Shown here: positions 1,170-39,081 of the stretch, piece after piece
How the letters are laid out: each line of letters opens with the position of its first letter
How positions within the stretch are numbered: position 1 is the first letter of the stretch
NCBI GenBank assembly: GCA_031181385.1
Contig: JAPSKV010000013.1
Coordinates: 11,321 to 75,320 of the forward strand
Direction of reading: 5' to 3'
Length of the DNA: 64,000 nucleotides
From: Fredinandcohnia onubensis
GTDB lineage: Bacteria > Bacillota > Bacilli > Bacillales > Bacillaceae_L
The notes under the pieces: model-generated
Databases searched by the model: none
Seen by the model: only the letters and a program-made list of their open reading frames with translations
What the model was told of the DNA's origin: nothing
Made by a program: the position numbers and the translations under genes

Positions 1170-1400
1170 TAGTGGCAGTATTTTTCGGATAATAGCAGTA
1201 TTTCTGAAATAGTGGCAGTAAGTAGGCGGTTAGTGGCAGTATTTTTGGAATAGTGGCAGTAACAAAAGCTATATGGCGATTTAGACGAGTGGTTTCCAGG
1301 AAAAAACATGTCATCGCAGCGATTTATGGCTGTTAATCCAAAAATACGGCTAATAAATAAAATTTATGGCCAATAATTCGAACTTATGGCCGATAACTCA
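1170..1400. repeat. Two degenerate 20-bp-period tandem repeat blocks
   Basis: TAGTGGCAGTA-type unit at 1170,1190,1210,1231,1251; TTATGGC-type unit at 20-bp period from 1321 to 1400. Confidence 0.75.
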
Positions 1401-19365: not shown

Positions 19366-19554
19366 TCACTTAGGAAAATAGCAAGCACCGATAATGATTA
19401 ATAAGATAAACAACACAACGACTAATACAAAGGTATTATCGTTACAAGGTTCAGGACAAGCATATCCATAACTAGGGGCTGTATAAGTTGGTTGTGGTGC
19501 CATGTAAGGGGTCTGAAAAGATGCCGCATTTACGTTAGATACATTTAGCTCCAT
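19366..19554 (-). CDS. YjcZ-family small sporulation protein
   Basis: C-terminal FVLVVVLFILLIIIGA signature; RBS AAAGGA; downstream terminator. Confidence 0.88.
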   Translation of the reverse strand: MELNVSNVNAASFQTPYMAPQPTYTAPSYGYACPEPCNDNTFVLVVVLFILLIIIGACYFPK

Positions 19555-20747: not shown

Positions 20748-21716
20748 CTATAATGGATGGTCCTTCTTTCCTTTTTGCTTGTTTCTTTTCCATAACAGAA
20801 GCGGAATCCAACTTAATAAAATGATCAGAAAGATAGATACGAGAGTTAAAATTACTGTATCCGTCATCAAGATTGAAGTGTAATCTCTAAAATCCATTTC
20901 CTTGGCAAAGACCTGATAAGGGTTATCGACATTATAGATGATAGGCATATCCTTTTTATATTTATTATAAGTATGCCACGTGACGCCTTTTACGACAAAA
21001 ATGGTGTCATGGTTCTTAGGTTTATACATCAAGGAGATGTAGTACTCACTTCTGTTGTACCTAGACGTTCTCCTTTCAAAACCGCGATCCGTTACAATCG
21101 CCATTGTTTCAGCATGATTCTTTCCAAAGTATTTCTTATACCCATTTTCAAATGCTGATTTTGTTTCAGTTGATAGAAAGAGAAGGAGAGCTATTATCAA
21201 GCCACCAAATAAGAGTACAGGAATCACAAAACCCGTAATTTTTTCAAGAAACAAGTGTCTTGAGATATTTGAAAGCAATTCCCTTATTGCATTAATTTTA
21301 CCTAGCCAATATAAAATATAGCCGATTGGATACAGACTAAAGACGGTTAACAAAATATAAAACCAGCGTATTTCATCTTTCAACAGTGTCTCCGTATAAA
21401 ACTTTCCGTCGACTTCATAACCGGGAATAGTATCTCCTACATCAATTTGGCCAAATAGATCCTGAGAAATCGTGATCATCGAATCATTATGTTTTGTAGG
21501 GATACTACTTTCAGGTAAAGCTCCGATTTGGACAGAAAACCTGGGGCCTTCCAATAGCCCATTCACTACATACTTTCGCCAAACCCTCTCTTCAACTAGA
21601 TTTTTCTCCGCTTTTTCAAGAAACTCCTGGTGCTCCTGAACGTTATCATAGATCGTATAACATATAAAAATAAATGCCGCAAATGCTACTATTTTTGGCC
21701 AACTTAATTCCTTCAT
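20748..21716 (-). CDS. Hypothetical membrane protein
   Basis: Long ORF with 4-5 TM segments; AAGGA RBS. Confidence 0.7.
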   Translation of the reverse strand: MKELSWPKIVAFAAFIFICYTIYDNVQEHQEFLEKAEKNLVEERVWRKYVVNGLLEGPRFSVQIGALPESSIPTKHNDSMITISQDLFGQIDVGDTIPGYEVDGKFYTETLLKDEIRWFYILLTVFSLYPIGYILYWLGKINAIRELLSNISRHLFLEKITGFVIPVLLFGGLIIALLLFLSTETKSAFENGYKKYFGKNHAETMAIVTDRGFERRTSRYNRSEYYISLMYKPKNHDTIFVVKGVTWHTYNKYKKDMPIIYNVDNPYQVFAKEMDFRDYTSILMTDTVILTLVSIFLIILLSWIPLLLWKRNKQKGKKDHPL

Positions 21717-21888
21717 AACTAAACATCCTTACATATCATTATTCTTTAAGTATATGAAACAAATTTAGAAATAAAAACAAGTCGAAAGTACTACTAAACT
21801 TTGAAAAATCGATTTAACCATTATGTAATGGAAGTTGAAATAGTTGTGTTAAAATGGAGTTAAGTTTTAGTGGAAGGATGGGGTTCTG

Positions 21889-22050
21889 GTGAGATGTGGT
21901 GCAAAATGCTTTCTTGTAGAAATTGAGGTAGACGGGAAAACACAAGTTCAGTCAGTTAACGCAAGAACACCTGCAGAAGCTCGAAAAAACATCCGAAAAG
22001 AATTAGGAACCGAAACTCAAATTCTAGCAGTTAAAGAAGAGAAGAAGTAA
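21889..22050 (+). CDS. Small protein below the ORF-track cutoff (53 aa)
   Basis: GTG..TAA, MRCGAKCFLVEIEVDGKTQVQSVNARTPAEARKNIRKELGTETQILAVKEEKK; GGAAGG/GGGG upstream. Confidence 0.6.
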   Translation: MRCGAKCFLVEIEVDGKTQVQSVNARTPAEARKNIRKELGTETQILAVKEEKK

Positions 22051-22114
22051 TGAAGCAGGGTGCTTTAAAAGTAACATAACTAAGATTCCAATATAAATAA
22101 AAGGGAGATCACGG

Positions 22115-22936
22115 TTGATGAGCCAATTAATTCGAGACCAATATCCACTCAAAGGAAAAAATGTACTTATTACTGGAGTTAGCCGTCGCCAAGGGATTGG
22201 GTATGCGATTGCCCGTCAAGTGGCTGCATGGGGAGCATCTGTTATAATTCATCATTTCCAGACTCATGATCAAGAACAATCATGGGGTGCGGATGATTTG
22301 AGTGAAGTACTTAAAGGTATCAAAGCTGAGCTAATCGAGGATGCATTTCTGTATGACATAAGCGGGGATTTTTTAGACCCTGAAGAACCAAAAAGGGTGA
22401 TGGATGAAATCCGTTATAATTGTGGCCATATAGATGCTGTTGTTTGCAATCATGCAATGAGTGGGAACGATGGCGCACTTGGTGAACTGACTGTAGAAAT
22501 GTTAGATAAACACTGGGCTGTTAATACACGTTCATCCATTCTACTCGCACAATATTTTGCAGCCCAACATAACTCTAAGTCAGGCAGAGGAAAAATTATA
22601 TTCATGACGTCGGGACAACGATTAGGTCCGATGCCAGGTGAAGTTGCGTATGTTGCTTCGAAGGGAGCGCTAGCTGACCTGACGCTTACACTATCAGATC
22701 AATTGGCTGATCAAAACATAACCGTGAATACCGTGAACCCAGGACCAGTTGATACGGGGTATATGACCGAGGAACTATGGGGAAATCTTAAACCCATGTT
22801 CCCATTTGGTAGAATTGGACACCCGGAAGACCCAGCGCGTCTTATTGCGTGGTTATTAACGGAAGAGGCTTCGTGGATTACCGGACAAATCATTAATACA
22901 GAAGGTGGCTTTGGCCGGTGGCGTCCTCATTCCTAA
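22115..22936 (+). CDS. SDR family oxidoreductase
   Basis: LITGVSRRQGIG, YVASK (YxxxK), NPGPVDTG, GQIINTEGG. Confidence 0.93.
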   Translation: MMSQLIRDQYPLKGKNVLITGVSRRQGIGYAIARQVAAWGASVIIHHFQTHDQEQSWGADDLSEVLKGIKAELIEDAFLYDISGDFLDPEEPKRVMDEIRYNCGHIDAVVCNHAMSGNDGALGELTVEMLDKHWAVNTRSSILLAQYFAAQHNSKSGRGKIIFMTSGQRLGPMPGEVAYVASKGALADLTLTLSDQLADQNITVNTVNPGPVDTGYMTEELWGNLKPMFPFGRIGHPEDPARLIAWLLTEEASWITGQIINTEGGFGRWRPHS

Positions 22937-22967
22937 TGGAGGAGTTTGAAACATTTCTGTACTCAAC

Positions 22968-23583
22968 AGATCGAAAAACGATAAATGCTATACCGCAAAT
23001 AGCATAAACGGTATAGCACCAGATCGAGAAACGATAAATGCTATACCGCAAATAGCATAAACGGTATAGCACCAGATCGAGAAACGATAAATGCTATACC
23101 GTAAACAGCATAAGCGGTATAGCTCCAGATTGAGAAACGATAAATGCTATACCGCAAACAGCATAAACGGTATAGCTCCAGATCGAGAAACGATAAATGC
23201 TATACCGCAAACAGCATAAACGGTATATCCATGTATCAAAAAACGATAAATGCTATACCGCAAATAGCATAATCGGTATATCCCTGTATCGAAAAACGAT
23301 AAATGCTATACCGCAAACAGCATAATCGGTATATCCCTGTATCGAAAAACGATAAGTGCTATACCGCAAACAGCATAAACGGTATAGCACCAGATCGAGA
23401 AACGATAAATGCTATACCGTAAACAGCATAAGCGGTATAGCTCCAGATTGAGAAACGATAAATGCTATACCGCAAACAGCATAAACGGTATAGCTCCAGA
23501 TCGAGAAACGATAAATGCTATACCGCAAACAGCATAAACGGTATATCACCAGATTGAGAAACGATAAATGCTATACCGCAAAT
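22968..23583. repeat. 53-bp tandem array, about 11.6 units, each with internal inverted repeats
   Basis: Units begin at 22968, 23021, 23074 ... 23551; consensus AGATCGAGAAACGATAAATGCTATACCGCAAAYAGCATAAACGGTATAGCWCC. Confidence 0.97.
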
Positions 23584-23719
23584 GAGTGTTCAAAATCCAA
23601 ACACCTATTTCAATTGAAAGGCACTCTTAAGTTAAGGGAGTTTTAGGAATAATGTCACGAACTGAAGAATAAACGTTATTATACAAGCCTTCCTAAATCT
23701 TCGTTAAGGTGCTGATGTT

Positions 23720-23899
23720 TTGAATAGGAATAAGAATATTAGTGTAGCAATTCTATTGCTGATTTTGATACTCGTTATCCTTATTGTCCATGTAATCCTT
23801 CATGTAAATGTGTATGTTGTATACAGCGCAAGTCTTGGTACGATTTTTATGATTGGCCTCATTATTTTACTCATTATTTTACTCATATTAAAAACGTAA
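23720..23899 (+). CDS. Very hydrophobic 59-aa protein
   Basis: TTG with AAGGTG RBS; two TM-like stretches; followed by hairpin GTGTTAATC..GATTAACAC plus T-run. Confidence 0.55.
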   Translation: MNRNKNISVAILLLILILVILIVHVILHVNVYVVYSASLGTIFMIGLIILLIILLILKT

Positions 23900-24008
23900 A
23901 CCGTCTAAACGTCTAAAGAGGTGTTAATCAAGCAGGATTAACACTTCTTTTTGTTGAACTTATTCTAGTAATACTACAGTTGTCATTTCTTACAAATAGG
24001 AGGTTTCT

Positions 24009-24296
24009 ATGGCATTTCTATTTTGGCCGTTTATGATTGTATCACTTATACTCTCCGTTATATCAATCTATAAAAATAAACCTTTATTACTCGTGATATC
24101 CGCAGTGCTTATCGTACCACTGTCACTCTATCTTGCAGCTACACCACGTTTTGAAATATGGGGACTCATATTTCCTTTGTTTAATGTTGGGGCTGCCGTG
24201 TCTCTAGCGAAAAAGATAATCTGGTTATCGGTTTTACTTATTGTTCCAAATTTCGTTCTTATTGGATGGATCGGATTTTCGGTAATGAATCAGTAA
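24009..24296 (+). CDS. Small membrane protein
   Basis: AGGAGG RBS; hydrophobic; YLAATPRF. Confidence 0.75.
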   Translation: MAFLFWPFMIVSLILSVISIYKNKPLLLVISAVLIVPLSLYLAATPRFEIWGLIFPLFNVGAAVSLAKKIIWLSVLLIVPNFVLIGWIGFSVMNQ

Positions 24297-24318
24297 AATT
24301 TTAGAGGAGTGTCTCAAC

Positions 24319-24996
24319 ATGGATATTAAATTAGTCATTTTACAAACAGATAGAATGGAAGAGATGAAGAAGTTCTATGTTGACCTTTTCGGATTTCCTT
24401 TAATTAAAGAAAATAACAATAGCTTTCGTATTAAAGTAGGTTCAAGCGAGTTGGAATTTACCACACAAAACGTAAAAGGGAATCCTTATTATCACTTTGC
24501 CTTTAATATTCCGTCTAACAAGTTTAGAGAAGCAAAGTCATGGGTCAAAGAGAGGGTGGAATTAAGTGTGGAGGATGGGGATGATGAAGCCTATTTTTCT
24601 TTATTTTCCGCACATGCCCTCTATTTTTACGATCCGGCTGGGAATATTGTAGAGTTTATTTCAAGGCAGGGCTCTGAAGAAGAAACAAAGCCATTCTCCA
24701 TAGTCAGTGTGATGAATATTAGTGAGATAGGACTTACAGTTAATGATGCGATTAATGCTGGCACTAGGTTAATAGAGATTGGTATTAATGAGAGGAACAA
24801 CAATCCACTTAGTCAAACATCACTAAATTTCATGGGAGATAAATCAAAAGGAATCTTCATAATTTTAAACCAACCTGGCAGAAGATGGATCTTTTCCGAT
24901 AAGATTTCAGCCACATTTCCACTTGAAATTTTAACAACAGATGGCAGTAAAATTGTGGTCAATTCTGAAAAACAGTTTCATGTGAACAAGGGTTGA
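24319..24996 (+). CDS. VOC family protein (ring-cleaving dioxygenase-like)
   Basis: YYHFAFNIPSNKF; LYFYDPAGNIVEFI. Confidence 0.85.
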   Translation: MDIKLVILQTDRMEEMKKFYVDLFGFPLIKENNNSFRIKVGSSELEFTTQNVKGNPYYHFAFNIPSNKFREAKSWVKERVELSVEDGDDEAYFSLFSAHALYFYDPAGNIVEFISRQGSEEETKPFSIVSVMNISEIGLTVNDAINAGTRLIEIGINERNNNPLSQTSLNFMGDKSKGIFIILNQPGRRWIFSDKISATFPLEILTTDGSKIVVNSEKQFHVNKG

Positions 24997-32421: not shown

Positions 32422-33378
32422 ATGATGGGACATCACCATCACCACCATCATCACGGTCACGACCATCATGGTCACCATCACCATCACCATCATCATTTTG
32501 ATGAAGTTAGGGAAGGCAATAAAAAAGGCTTACTCATAGCTCTAATCATTACAACTGGAATCATGCTGCTGGAATTTTTCGGAGGTCTTATTACAAACAG
32601 TTTAGCTTTGTTATCAGATTCAGGTCATATGCTTAGTGATGCAAGTTCATTAGCATTAAGCTTAGTTGCATTTTGGTTTGCTACCCGACCTGCATCACCG
32701 AAGAAGACCTATGGGTTTTACCGATTTGAGATTTTAGCCGCCCTTTTTAATGCAGTTACACTGTTTGTCATTGCTGGTTTTATCGTTTATGAGGCATTTC
32801 ATCGATTTTTCGAGCCTCCGACTGTAGCAAGTGGAACGATGATGATTATTGCTGGAATTGGTCTTTTGGCGAATATACTGAGTGCTTGGTCACTGATTAG
32901 TAAAGGCGATGTAAAAAACAACGTTAATCTAAGGAGCGCATACCTCCATGTTCTTGGAGATGCACTTGGATCAGTGGGTGCCATAATCGCAGGACTCTTG
33001 ATGCTGATGTTTGAATGGTATATAGCGGATCCCATTATTTCTGTAGTTGTCGCAATCCTGATTTTAAAAAGTGCATGGGGTGTGTTAACACATTCGATTC
33101 ATATTTTAATGGAAGGTACGCCGATTACGATTGATCAAAAAGAAGTGAAAGCCACCCTTGAAGAAATTGAAGGAGTAATTGATGTTCATGATCTTCACAT
33201 TTGGACGATCACATCAGGCATTGATTCGCTCACCTGTCATATTTTAATCAAAGACGACCATGACAGCCAGGAAATTTTACAGCAATCCATTGATAAAATA
33301 CGTGACAAATTCAAAATCGAACATACCACCATTCAAATTGAAAAATCATCGATTGAGCATGGGGAAATGCGAGTATAG
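32422..33378 (+). CDS. czcD: CDF zinc/cobalt/cadmium exporter with His-rich N-terminus
   Basis: LALLSDSGHMLSD, AYLHVLGDALGS, HDLHIWTI, HTTIQIE; 19 His in first 25 residues. Confidence 0.93.
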   Translation: MMGHHHHHHHHGHDHHGHHHHHHHHFDEVREGNKKGLLIALIITTGIMLLEFFGGLITNSLALLSDSGHMLSDASSLALSLVAFWFATRPASPKKTYGFYRFEILAALFNAVTLFVIAGFIVYEAFHRFFEPPTVASGTMMIIAGIGLLANILSAWSLISKGDVKNNVNLRSAYLHVLGDALGSVGAIIAGLLMLMFEWYIADPIISVVVAILILKSAWGVLTHSIHILMEGTPITIDQKEVKATLEEIEGVIDVHDLHIWTITSGIDSLTCHILIKDDHDSQEILQQSIDKIRDKFKIEHTTIQIEKSSIEHGEMRV

Positions 33379-38713: not shown

Positions 38714-38800
38714 CTATACAAAAGGCAAAATTGTTGAAAGACAATGACGCAAAGCCACGGGCCTAAGGAGGATTCCTCTATGGTGGCCGGGTTGCTATAG
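38714..38800 (+). ncRNA. Cyclic di-GMP-I (GEMM) riboswitch aptamer
   Basis: GGCAAA-ATTGTT-GAAA-GACAAT-GACGCAAAGCCACGGGCCTAA..TATGGTGGCCGGGTTGC with closing CTATA/TATAG, matching the recalled consensus and GNRA tetraloop. Confidence 0.9.
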
Positions 38801-38879: not shown

Positions 38880-39081
38880 TGTTCAAAAAGTCCGGTGAAA
38901 TTGACACATCGAATTTCTTCGTTGGCTTGTTTTTCCGTTGCTCACGTATTAACTACATACGTTCCACTACTCAAAACTGCACCGCCTCGAACTTTCGACG
39001 CACAGGACGTGCTAGTGTCGACAATGCCACAGGACGTGGCGTTTTTGTCGACGTGGTCCTTTTCATCCTCCTTTTTGAACA
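38880..39081. mobile_element. MITE-like repeat, long variant
   Basis: 11-bp terminal IR TGTTCAAAAAG/CTTTTTGAACA; aligns end to end with 63155-63296 apart from a 58-bp insert. Confidence 0.75.

What the first reader, a model, noticed from the sequence alone, without database searches (positions are those of the whole stretch)
22968..23583. 53-bp tandem array of double-hairpin units
About 11.6 near-identical units with no unique spacers. Each unit has hairpin 1 (T)ATCG-ARAAA-CGAT(A) and hairpin 2 GCTATACCG-13nt-CGGTATAGC, plus a mutually exclusive ATGCT(A)/(T)AGCAT pairing. The period is not a multiple of 3 and both strands carry stops in every unit, so it cannot encode a repeat protein. It lies directly 3' of an SDR gene with no intervening terminator seen, so it could be transcribed as a multivalent protein-binding or processed RNA, or act as a DNA operator/cruciform array. 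No known element class was recognised.
Basis: partly seen in the sequence, partly recalled or inferred. Interest (0 to 1): 0.75.

Follow-up and report, generated by a model that had tools for sequence, protein, structure and literature searches.

The report
Dispersed 53-bp minisatellite array family
The 53-bp tandem array is real, but it is one copy of an apparently undescribed family of variable-copy intergenic repeats found at several sites in Fredinandcohnia genomes; it is transcribed along with its neighbours, its hairpins are not conserved as structures, and only a sequence core is conserved.

Summary
Window 22967-23582 holds 11.6 head-to-tail 53-bp units without spacers, starting 30 nt after an SDR gene, with no terminator between.

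It is not a one-off. Homologous arrays lie at the same site in F. onubensis (10.6 units). They also lie at an unrelated site, between an rRNA operon terminator and mgtC-ctsR-mcsB-clpC, in eight related genomes, with about 2.6 to 8.6 units or a degenerate relic. One close relative keeps only a single 33-nt partial unit at the SDR site. Three more distant relatives have none there.

DNA runs holding this same strain, and RNA runs of a relative, show further arrays elsewhere in those genomes. The RNA runs show transcript contigs running into the array from both sides.

Across 46 units from 9 arrays, stem pairing is not kept better than shuffled controls. G·U-type and C·A-type single changes are about equally common. 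Only this strain's recently amplified unit variant folds strongly.

However, 28 of 53 positions are invariant or nearly so between clades whose 4-fold sites are about half diverged.

Best reading: a dispersed minisatellite of the MIRU/BOX/BIME kind, transcribed passively, whose conserved core hints at an unidentified sequence-specific partner. Interest is modest.

The parts
22118..22936 (+). SDR-family oxidoreductase gene immediately upstream. A TTG at 22115 is an alternative start.
   Evidence: ORF list. Pfam adh_short/adh_short_C2 is recorded for the identical protein. Orthologues are 86-92% identical in Fredinandcohnia and the 'Bacillus' timonensis group.
22937..22966 (+). 30-nt linker between the SDR stop codon and the first unit. 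It contains no terminator.
   Evidence: Sequence. Terminator scan found 0 sites in 21700-24400. The linker is conserved in F. onubensis L001 and in L006.
22967..23582 (+). The array: 11 full 53-bp units plus a final 33-nt partial unit (23550-23582). The + strand is A-rich (A 42%, T 19%).
   Evidence: TRF, unit table, HMM hits, base composition.
23020..23072 (+). Example unit (unit 2). Palindrome 1 arms are 23023-23026 and 23032-23035. Palindrome 2 arms are 23040-23048 and 23062-23070.
   Evidence: As RNA this unit type folds at -15.5 kcal/mol, z = -5.9.
23232..23390 (+). Units 6-8, of the older 'TGTATCG...' type. They resemble the F. onubensis units, and units 6 and 7 carry T at column 50, which weakens hairpin 2.
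   Evidence: Unit table compared with L001 units. This type folds at -8.5 kcal/mol, z = -1.9.
23073..23231 (+). Units 3-5, copy A of a recent 6-unit (318-bp) higher-order duplication.
   Evidence: 157/159 identical to 23391-23549.
23391..23549 (+). Units 9-11, copy B of the higher-order duplication.
23583..23621 (+). 39-nt post-array segment present only where the array is present (window and F. onubensis; absent in L006). It contains a weak 5-bp stem, 23586-23590 with 23600-23604.
   Evidence: Comparison of window, L001 and L006. The stem pair T23590-A23600 is C-G in L001, a single compensatory change.
23622..23719 (+). Conserved non-coding stretch upstream of the next gene. It is promoter-like (TATTAT here, TATAAT in relatives) and is present in all relatives, with or without the array.
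   Evidence: Alignment by eye of window, L001, L006, L007 and L010. The promoter scan reports the palindromic TATAAT on the - strand. This is an inference.
23720..23899 (+). Downstream 59-aa hydrophobic small ORF, conserved in relatives.
   Evidence: ORF list. A 59-aa gene is called at the same place in L007 and L010.

Best explanation
This is one locus of a dispersed, clade-restricted family of 53-bp intergenic minisatellites (VNTR-type arrays) in Fredinandcohnia and the neighbouring 'Bacillus' timonensis group.

The arrays sit at several unrelated intergenic sites per genome. They gain and lose whole units, presumably by replication slippage or unequal recombination (the mechanism is inferred). 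In some lineages they collapse or decay. They are transcribed passively as part of neighbouring transcripts; here that means as the 3' tail of the SDR mRNA.

The two hairpins come from two short palindromes in the unit. They are strong only in the young unit variant that recently amplified in this strain, and they are not maintained as structures. The array has no function specific to the SDR gene.

About half of the unit (AAAC.ATAA.TG.TATACCG.AAA.....TAA.CGGTATA) evolves much more slowly than neutral sites. So the repeat is not drifting freely: something reads the sequence. Whether that is a host DNA- or RNA-binding factor, or whatever propagates the repeat, cannot be told from sequence.
For: SHOWN:

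(1) The same family occurs at an orthologous site. F. onubensis L001:7247-7810 has 10.6 units with the same first and last bases of the array.

(2) The same family occurs at an unrelated site, 5S rRNA terminator -> array -> mgtC-ctsR-mcsA-mcsB-clpC, in 8 genomes. Copy numbers are about 8.6, 8, 4.6, 3.6, 2.6, at least 4.8 and 3.1, plus a degenerate relic in strain QZ13. F. onubensis carries both loci.

(3) There are further loci. Contigs with other flanks end in units in DNA runs that hold the window's own strain, in isolate runs, and in RNA runs, where at least 4-5 array loci are implied.

(4) Turnover is fast. L013 and L020 have mcsB 99.6% identical but 2.6 versus 3.6 units. The window has a 6-unit duplication that is 157/159 identical. 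L006 keeps only one 33-nt partial unit at the SDR site. L007, L008 and L010 have none there.

(5) Structure is not selected. Paired cells are 84.8% against a shuffle mean of 84.3% (57/500 shuffles as high); the covariation score is reached by 70/500 shuffles; pairs with changes on both sides by 393/500. G.U(+) versus C.A single changes number 27 vs 33. Units of other species fold at z = -1.1 to -2.0.

(6) It is transcribed. Neighbouring genes differ in depth from 3 to 64,000, so the runs are real RNA. The SDR contig runs into the array and the downstream contig starts inside it. The locus-2 array is covered at 85x against 498x for mgtC.

(7) A core is constrained. 13 columns are invariant and 15 nearly invariant in 46 units. 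Array consensus identity between clades is 0.72-0.85, while 4-fold sites of mcsB and mgtC are 0.40-0.62 identical.

INFERRED: the slippage or recombination mechanism, passive transcription, and the absence of a locus-specific function.
Against: The conserved core, including unpaired positions such as A10-A12, A17-A18, A31-A33 and T39-A41, is hard to explain if the repeat is entirely functionless.

How the repeat reached new loci is unknown. I saw no target-site duplication or terminal inverted repeat, but I did not test for them formally.

Only two loci could be read in full. In both, the A-rich strand has the orientation of the flanking genes, which would also fit an RNA-level role.

Transcription evidence comes from unstranded assembled contigs of a related organism, not from the window's own strain.

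No whole genome could be scanned, so the true number, orientation and context of arrays are not known.
Confidence: 0.55

Rival explanations
1. The array is a multivalent DNA binding platform. A sequence-specific, probably dimeric, DNA-binding protein recognises the inverted half-sites TATACCG/CGGTATA and the AAAC..TAA direct motifs. The arrays would then act as operator-, centromere- or nucleoid-organising-type clusters. The 53-bp period is about 5 helical turns, which would put successive sites on one face of the helix.
For: Conservation is at the level of sequence, not pairing. The information profile of the two arms of palindrome 2 is symmetric: columns 23-29 mirror columns 49-43. The core evolves more slowly than 4-fold sites. 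Half-site centres are 22 and 31 bp apart and the period is 53 bp, all close to whole numbers of helical turns (read from the sequence).
Against: No candidate protein and no gene is shared by the two loci. Arrays are dispensable and decay in some lineages (L006, QZ13). Copy number is very variable. The conserved spacer residues are asymmetric (AAA and TAA on the same strand), unlike a simple dyad operator. AA/TT helical phasing is not significant against unit shuffles (593/5000 and 223/5000 shuffles as high). There is no match in plasmid or phage collections, and no rep or par genes lie nearby.
Confidence: 0.2
2. The array is a functional RNA element. Transcribed as the 3' UTR of the SDR mRNA, and in other transcripts elsewhere, it could protect the mRNA from 3' exonucleases as REP/BIME elements do. 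Alternatively it could act as a multivalent sponge for an RNA-binding protein that reads the A-rich loops, or be processed into 53-nt small RNAs.
For: Transcript contigs run into the array from both sides. There is no terminator between the gene and the array. The whole array folds far better than shuffles on the + strand (z = -16.3). The invariant unpaired residues are all A-rich on the + strand. In the two loci that could be read, the orientation matches the flanking genes.
Against: There is no covariation above shuffles and no excess of G.U over C.A changes. Units of other species fold like shuffled sequence. The - strand also folds better than its shuffles (z = -10.3) and more stably in absolute terms (-245 versus -210 kcal/mol). 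The locus-2 array lies after the rRNA terminator and upstream of the conserved mgtC promoter-like region, outside an obvious transcription unit, and is covered about 6-fold less than mgtC. No Rfam family matches. The SDR gene does without the array in close relatives.
Confidence: 0.15
3. The array is a relic of something else: a degenerate CRISPR array, plasmid iterons from an integrated replicon, or an assembly artefact.
For: Regular repeats containing a palindrome superficially resemble CRISPR repeats. The 22-nt sub-repeat spacing resembles iteron spacing (TRF period-23 rows).
Against: There are no spacers: all 53 columns are homologous between units. The neighbouring genes include no cas, rep or par genes. 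Plasmid and phage collections give no match. Independent runs reproduce both flanks exactly, and the array occurs in independent assemblies of other species.
Confidence: 0.03

Closest known systems
MIRU (mycobacterial interspersed repetitive units; 40-100-bp intergenic VNTRs of Mycobacterium tuberculosis, some classes 53 bp). From my own knowledge; one paper on a 53-bp mycobacterial repeat surfaced.
   Same: Direct head-to-tail units of about 50 bp. They lie in intergenic regions between co-oriented genes, at several loci per genome. Copy number differs between close relatives, and they are transcribed with their neighbours.
   Different: There is no sequence relationship and the phylum differs. 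MIRUs typically carry small ORFs that overlap the stop and start codons of the flanking genes. Here the array starts 30 nt after the stop codon and has no continuous frame. The units here contain two palindromes.
Pneumococcal BOX elements (boxA-boxB(n)-boxC), in which the 45-nt boxB module is tandemly repeated a variable number of times. From my own knowledge.
   Same: A Firmicute intergenic repeat with a tandemly iterated module of about 50 nt, predicted stem-loops, transcription with neighbouring genes, and multiple loci.
   Different: BOX elements have conserved terminal modules (boxA, boxC) shared by all loci. Here the sequences flanking the arrays differ at the two loci, and the arrays begin and end at different unit phases: columns 1-33 at the SDR locus, about columns 17-53 at the rrn locus. 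BOX has over 100 copies per genome; here only a handful of loci are seen.
REP/BIME elements of enterobacteria and pseudomonads, with their RAYT transposases. From my own knowledge.
   Same: Extragenic palindromic units clustered 3' of genes, co-transcribed, with alternating short and long linkers between palindrome arms. BIMEs stabilise upstream mRNA and bind IHF, gyrase and Pol I, which makes them the obvious functional analogy.
   Different: In BIMEs whole palindromic units alternate in orientation. Here all units are direct repeats. No GTAG-type head was recognised. There are few loci rather than hundreds. No RAYT gene is seen near either locus. The palindromes are not maintained by compensatory change.
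CRISPR arrays, and orphan CRISPR-like arrays such as Listeria RliB. From my own knowledge.
   Same: Regularly spaced partly palindromic repeats that are transcribed.
   Different: There are no unique spacers at all and no cas genes among the neighbours. Units are 86% identical over all 53 columns.

Membership tests
Bacterial dispersed intergenic minisatellite / VNTR (generic kind) | Head-to-tail direct repeats with units of 10-100 bp, non-coding | tested here: met
   Period 53, 11.6 copies, 0% indels. The longest open stretch is 42 aa (+) or 52 aa (-).
Bacterial dispersed intergenic minisatellite / VNTR (generic kind) | Copy number differs between close relatives at the same locus | tested here: met
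   SDR locus: 11.6, 10.6 and 0.6 units. rrn-mgtC locus: about 8.6, 8, 4.6, 3.6 and 2.6 units, including 2.6 versus 3.6 in genomes whose mcsB is 99.6% identical.
Bacterial dispersed intergenic minisatellite / VNTR (generic kind) | Homologous arrays at several unlinked loci of one genome | tested here: met
   F. onubensis has both L001 (SDR locus) and L012 (rrn locus). Other flanks are joined to units in runs that hold the window's own strain and in other runs.
MIRU | Units carry small ORFs that overlap the stop and start codons of the flanking genes; sequence homology to mycobacterial MIRU classes | tested here: not met
   The array starts 30 nt after the SDR stop, and no frame runs through it. 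Homology to mycobacterial MIRU sequences was not tested directly.
BOX element | Conserved boxA and boxC terminal modules flank the repeated module at every locus | tested here: not met
   The flanks of the two loci share nothing recognisable, and the arrays start and end at different unit phases.
REP/BIME | Clusters of palindromic units in alternating orientation | tested here: not met
   All units are in direct orientation. The unit HMM hits only one strand of each array at significant E-values.
REP/BIME | Hundreds of copies per genome and an associated RAYT (Y1 transposase) gene | not testable with these tools
   No whole genome could be scanned. There is no other copy in the 64-kb window, and no transposase was called next to either locus.
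CRISPR array | Repeats separated by unique spacers of similar length | tested here: not met
   All 53 columns are homologous between units; mean column identity is 86%.
CRISPR array | Adjacent cas genes | tested here: not met
   The neighbours are an SDR, small membrane ORFs, a glyoxalase/TxDE-like protein, a GNAT, a TetR and an MFS transporter.
Structured non-coding RNA (any Rfam family) | Match to a curated covariance model | tested here: not met
   Nothing at gathering score. The best sub-threshold hits are mir-92 at 21.5 bits against a cut-off of 47, and S808 at 15.4 against 76.
Structured non-coding RNA (any Rfam family) | Base pairs maintained by compensatory or wobble changes on the transcribed strand | tested here: not met
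   Covariation is not above shuffles. G.U versus C.A single changes are 27 vs 33. There are a few isolated compensated pairs: 6-14 U-A in two adjacent L012 units, 21-51 A-U in two units, and several pair types at 22-50.
Intrinsic terminator | G+C-rich stem followed by a U tract | tested here: not met
   0 terminator-like sites in 21700-24400. No unit is followed by a T run.
Plasmid iterons / partition centromere arrays | Direct repeats adjacent to rep or par genes on a replicon or integrated element | tested here: not met
   No rep or par genes nearby. No match in 72,556 plasmids or 50,697 phage records.
Plasmid iterons / partition centromere arrays | Sites phased with the DNA helix | tested here: inconclusive
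   The period of 53 bp is 5.0 turns and the sub-spacings are 22 and 31 bp. However, the 10.6-bp AA/TT harmonic is not significant against unit shuffles.

The most novel reading that the evidence does not exclude
The conserved core (AAAC.ATAA.TG.TATACCG.AAA.....TAA.CGGTATA), repeated 3 to 12 times at several chromosomal sites, is the recognition site of a dedicated, still unidentified sequence-specific protein of the Fredinandcohnia / 'Bacillus' timonensis clade. The arrays would then be multivalent loading or sequestration platforms. On DNA they could serve chromosome organisation or insulate highly transcribed units such as the rRNA operon. On RNA they could act as a protein sponge. Either would be a new host-repeat system in Bacillaceae.
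Probability: 0.15. Interest if true: 0.65.

Novelty: new member of a known kind. Interest (0 to 1): 0.3.

Why it matters
In practical terms, these arrays break short-read assemblies. The Logan contig of the identical strain ends 63 bp after the SDR gene. They would also make good VNTR markers for typing Fredinandcohnia strains.

In biological terms, this is a clean example of a minisatellite family that has persisted at one orthologous site (rrn-mgtC) since before the split of clades whose synonymous sites are near saturation, while copy number turns over quickly. A core of about 28 positions stays fixed, yet the hairpins that first catch the eye are not what is conserved. That contrast gives a testable question: what reads the core?

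If a binding protein exists, the finding becomes considerably more interesting. If not, this is ordinary repetitive DNA.

Tried and rejected
(1) Pseudo-protein search. I translated the arrays of three loci in both strands, concatenated the translations, and searched the 5.8-billion-protein set, hoping that spurious ORFs called in other arrays would reveal more loci. Nothing scored E <= 0.01. Nine array ORFs are not in the collection as exact sequences.

(2) Plasmid and phage collections, blastn 'distant' mode: no match.

(3) Viral contig scan with a degenerate core pattern: one single-site hit, L005, with no array. L003 from the metagenome scan is likewise a chance hit inside a response-regulator gene.

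(4) Rfam at gathering score and at permissive E-values: nothing credible.

(5) Promoter and terminator scans: no promoter-like or terminator-like site inside the array.

(6) Intrinsic DNA curvature. The AA/TT 10.6-bp harmonic is the highest in the window, but that is trivial for a tandem repeat, and it is not significant against shuffles of the unit.

(7) The alternative ATGCT/AGCAT helix. It is 91% 'paired' only through runs of G.U wobbles, and shuffles reach the same value in 500/500 cases. Rejected as evidence for structure.

(8) Inter-unit versus intra-unit pairing of the palindrome-2 arms: indistinguishable, 287 Watson-Crick cells each.

(9) Concerted evolution between loci within one genome. 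F. onubensis locus 1 and locus 2 have a consensus identity of 0.83, which is lower than locus 1 against another genome's locus 2 (0.91), so there is no sign of it.

(10) Polarity of gain or loss at the SDR locus. The SDR genes of the window, L001 and L006 are about equidistant (4-fold identity 0.73-0.80), so this is unresolved. The L006 pattern fits a single deletion that removed the rest of the array plus the 39-nt segment.

(12) Literature. Full-text searches for the unit sequence, for 53-bp Bacillus repeats, and for Fredinandcohnia found nothing on this repeat.

Full report
OBSERVATION

Tandem Repeats Finder reports an array at window 22967-23582 with period 53, 11.6 copies, 93% matches and no indels. 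The 31-nt core of the unit occurs 11 times within 3 mismatches, against 0 in shuffles, and nowhere else in the window. A profile HMM built from the units finds no further copy in the 64 kb.

The unit is CAGATCGAGAAACGATAAATGCTATACCGCAAACAGCATAAACGGTATAGCAC. It holds two short palindromes. The first is ATCG-N5-CGAT. The second is GCTATACCG-N13-CGGTATAGC, which is perfect in 7 of 11 full units; the other four have T at column 50.

No reading frame is open for more than 42 aa on the + strand or 52 aa on the - strand. The array begins 30 nt after the stop codon of an SDR-family gene (22118-22936), and no terminator-like site lies anywhere between 21700 and 24400.

Units 3-5 and 9-11 are 157/159 identical, which marks a recent six-unit duplication. 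Two metagenome runs reproduce both flanks without a single difference.

THE REPEAT IS A FAMILY, NOT A ONE-OFF

A scan of one genome per species with a strict core pattern found Fredinandcohnia onubensis. In that genome the orthologous SDR gene is followed by a 10.6-unit array (L001:7247-7810) that begins and ends at the same bases of the unit as the window's array. The window therefore comes from a related Fredinandcohnia: its SDR is 92% identical at the protein level (BLASTP) and 77% identical at 4-fold sites.

A metagenome scan found the same repeat in a different context (L002). There it sits after the 5S rRNA gene and its terminator, and upstream of mgtC-ctsR-mcsA-mcsB-clpC. The McsB of that contig is identical to one from 'unclassified Fredinandcohnia'.

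Using members of that McsB cluster, I fetched the same locus from further genomes. All of them carry the repeat at that site, with these unit counts:
- about 8.6 units in L011;
- about 8 in L012, which is the same F. onubensis genome as L001;
- 4.6 in L014-L017;
- 3.6 in F. salidurans (L020);
- 2.6 in L013;
- 4.8 in 'Bacillus' timonensis (L021);
- 3.1 in Bacillus sp. 1P02SD (L022);
- a degenerate relic in Fredinandcohnia sp. QZ13 (L018/L019).

L013 and L020 have mcsB genes 99.6% identical yet differ by one unit.

The SDR locus tells the opposite story. One close relative (L006, GCA_003640645.1) keeps a single, somewhat decayed 33-nt partial unit and lacks the 39-nt segment that follows the array in the window. 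B. timonensis, Bacillus sp. HNG and Bacillus sp. JJ1533 have no unit there at all.

There are more loci still. Contigs with foreign flanks end in units in the runs that hold the window's own strain and in isolate runs. The RNA runs of a relative imply at least four or five array loci.

No gene is common to the two loci that I could read in full.

TRANSCRIPTION

Three small RNA-seq runs (X15-X17) come from an organism whose SDR is 92% identical to the window's. They are real RNA: neighbouring genes differ in depth from about 3 to 64,000, and contigs break at gene boundaries.

The SDR contig starts near 21800 and continues about 180 nt into the array. The contig covering the downstream genes begins inside the last units. 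At the rrn-mgtC locus, in one run the mgtC contig (498x) reaches into the array, and a separate 331-nt contig (85x) spans the array up to the end of the 5S gene.

These are unstranded assembled contigs from a relative, so the evidence is indirect. It does fit read-through transcription, which the lack of a terminator predicts.

ARE THE HAIRPINS WHAT MATTERS?

I aligned 46 full units from 9 arrays without gaps (alignment A2) and counted the 15 proposed pairs.
- 84.8% of cells pair, against 16-38% when the partner is slid by 1-3 columns. So the palindromes are real.
- Shuffling partners among units gives 84.3%, and 57 of 500 shuffles reach the observed value.
- The covariation score is reached by 70 of 500 shuffles, and the number of pairs with changes on both sides by 393 of 500.

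Single changes that leave a G.U pair on the + strand are no commoner than those that leave C.A, which would be a G.U pair only on the other strand (27 versus 33). Intra-unit and inter-unit pairing of the second palindrome cannot be told apart.

A few compensated pairs do exist. They are 6-14 U-A in two adjacent L012 units, 21-51 A-U in two units, and C-G, A-U, G-C and G.U at pair 22-50. They do not exceed chance.

Folding energies agree with this. The window's dominant unit type folds at -15.5 kcal/mol (z = -5.9). The older unit type in the window, and units of F. onubensis and B. timonensis, fold at -5.7 to -9.7 kcal/mol (z = -1.1 to -2.0).

The strong double hairpin is therefore a feature of a young variant that has just amplified in this strain, not of the family.

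WHAT IS CONSERVED

13 columns are invariant and 15 more are at least 90% conserved in the 46 units. They spell AAAC.ATAA.TG.TATACCG.AAA.....TAA.CGGTATA. This includes positions that would be unpaired loops or linkers. The 5' arm of palindrome 1 is among the less conserved parts.

Between the core Fredinandcohnia group and B. timonensis, 1P02SD or QZ13, 4-fold degenerate sites of mcsB and mgtC are only 40-62% identical. The array consensus sequences are 72-85% identical. Between the window and F. onubensis the two measures are similar (0.83 versus 0.77).

So about a third of the unit drifts freely while the core is held. Because the rrn-mgtC array sits at the same site in all these genomes, vertical descent is the simplest history. 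Homogenisation within an array does not slow divergence between species. I therefore infer constraint on the core, either from a host factor that reads it or from whatever propagates the repeat.

There is no sign of homogenisation between the two loci of F. onubensis.

WHAT IT MOST LIKELY IS

The behaviour is that of the dispersed intergenic minisatellites known from other bacteria. The points of resemblance are direct units of about 50 bp, several unlinked loci, rapid gain and loss of whole units, collapse and decay in some lineages, no linked gene, and passive co-transcription.

I put 0.55 on that reading. It carries the rider that the conserved core is unexplained.

A multivalent DNA-binding platform gets 0.2. 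It is favoured by sequence-level conservation, symmetric half-sites and a period of five helical turns. It is weakened by dispensability, the absence of any candidate protein and non-significant helical phasing.

A functional RNA, whether a 3' UTR stabiliser of the REP/BIME type, a protein sponge or processed small RNAs, gets 0.15. It is favoured by transcription and by the A-rich conserved loops. It is weakened by the lack of covariation or strand bias, and by the position of the locus-2 array outside an obvious transcription unit.

CRISPR relic, iteron relic and artefact are essentially excluded.

COMPARISON WITH KNOWN FAMILIES

The generic defining features of a dispersed VNTR are met. MIRU-specific features (overlapping small ORFs) are not met. 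BOX-specific features (shared terminal modules) are not met. REP/BIME-specific features (alternating orientation, very high copy number, RAYT) are not met or could not be tested. CRISPR features (spacers, cas genes) are not met.

No paper in the searchable library mentions the unit sequence or such a repeat in this genus. The family appears to be undescribed, but it is a new member of a familiar kind.

LIMITS

Only two loci could be read in full. No whole genome could be scanned. Transcription evidence is unstranded and comes from a relative. The polarity of gain or loss at the SDR site is unresolved.

Noticed in passing
window 38714-38799 (+): c-di-GMP-I riboswitch aptamer, 83.6 bits against a gathering score of 35.
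   Followed up: no
window 38999-39065 (-): Bacillaceae-1 RNA (RF01690), 42.5 bits against a gathering score of 35. It lies 200 nt from the riboswitch on the opposite strand.
   Followed up: no
window 19366-19554 (-): A 62-aa ORF (Pfam YjcZ_2 in the identical Logan contig) lies in the most heavily covered stretch of the region in RNA runs X15-X17. Contig depths there are 8,000-64,000, against about 100 for the neighbours.
   Followed up: partly
window 23583-23621: A 39-nt segment is present only where the array is present. It holds a weak 5-bp stem (23586-23590 with 23600-23604) whose closing pair T-A is C-G in F. onubensis, a single compensatory change. It may be a decayed unit remnant, since it shares AGTGT..AATC with F. 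onubensis unit loops.
   Followed up: partly
window 22937-23720 and loci L006, L007, L008, L010: The space between the SDR gene and the 59-aa gene is an indel hotspot in the clade. It holds the array (window, L001), one partial unit (L006), nothing (L007), a 302-aa Lon_C-domain gene (L008/L009), or a 104-aa membrane ORF (L010).
   Followed up: partly
window 22967-23582: Each 53-bp unit is itself built from a 22/31-nt sub-repeat: AAAC-N2-4-TAA-N1-2-SS(G)-TATA-YCG occurs twice, and TATCG is duplicated at the junction. TRF reports period-23 rows for this. The + strand is strongly A-rich (A 42%, T 19%).
   Followed up: partly
L022:2140-2330 and L019:1-200: Between the rRNA terminator and the array, QZ13 and 1P02SD carry about 300 nt with a different recurring motif (GGTAACGAAAA...GTTCC...). 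TRF did not call it as a tandem array.
   Followed up: no
L021: roughly 300 nt downstream of the array and upstream of mgtC (approx. 640-700): B. timonensis has a second copy of the 3' end of the 5S gene plus a terminator-like hairpin (GCTAGGCAAC...GGTAGGTCTTTTTT) downstream of the array. This suggests a local duplication or rearrangement at the end of the rRNA operon.
   Followed up: no
window 32431-32496: 18-bp period repeat CATCACCATCACCACCAT (3.5 copies). It is probably a histidine-rich coding repeat.
   Followed up: no
window 1170-1261: Weak 20-bp period tandem repeat, 4.6 copies, 68% matches.
   Followed up: no
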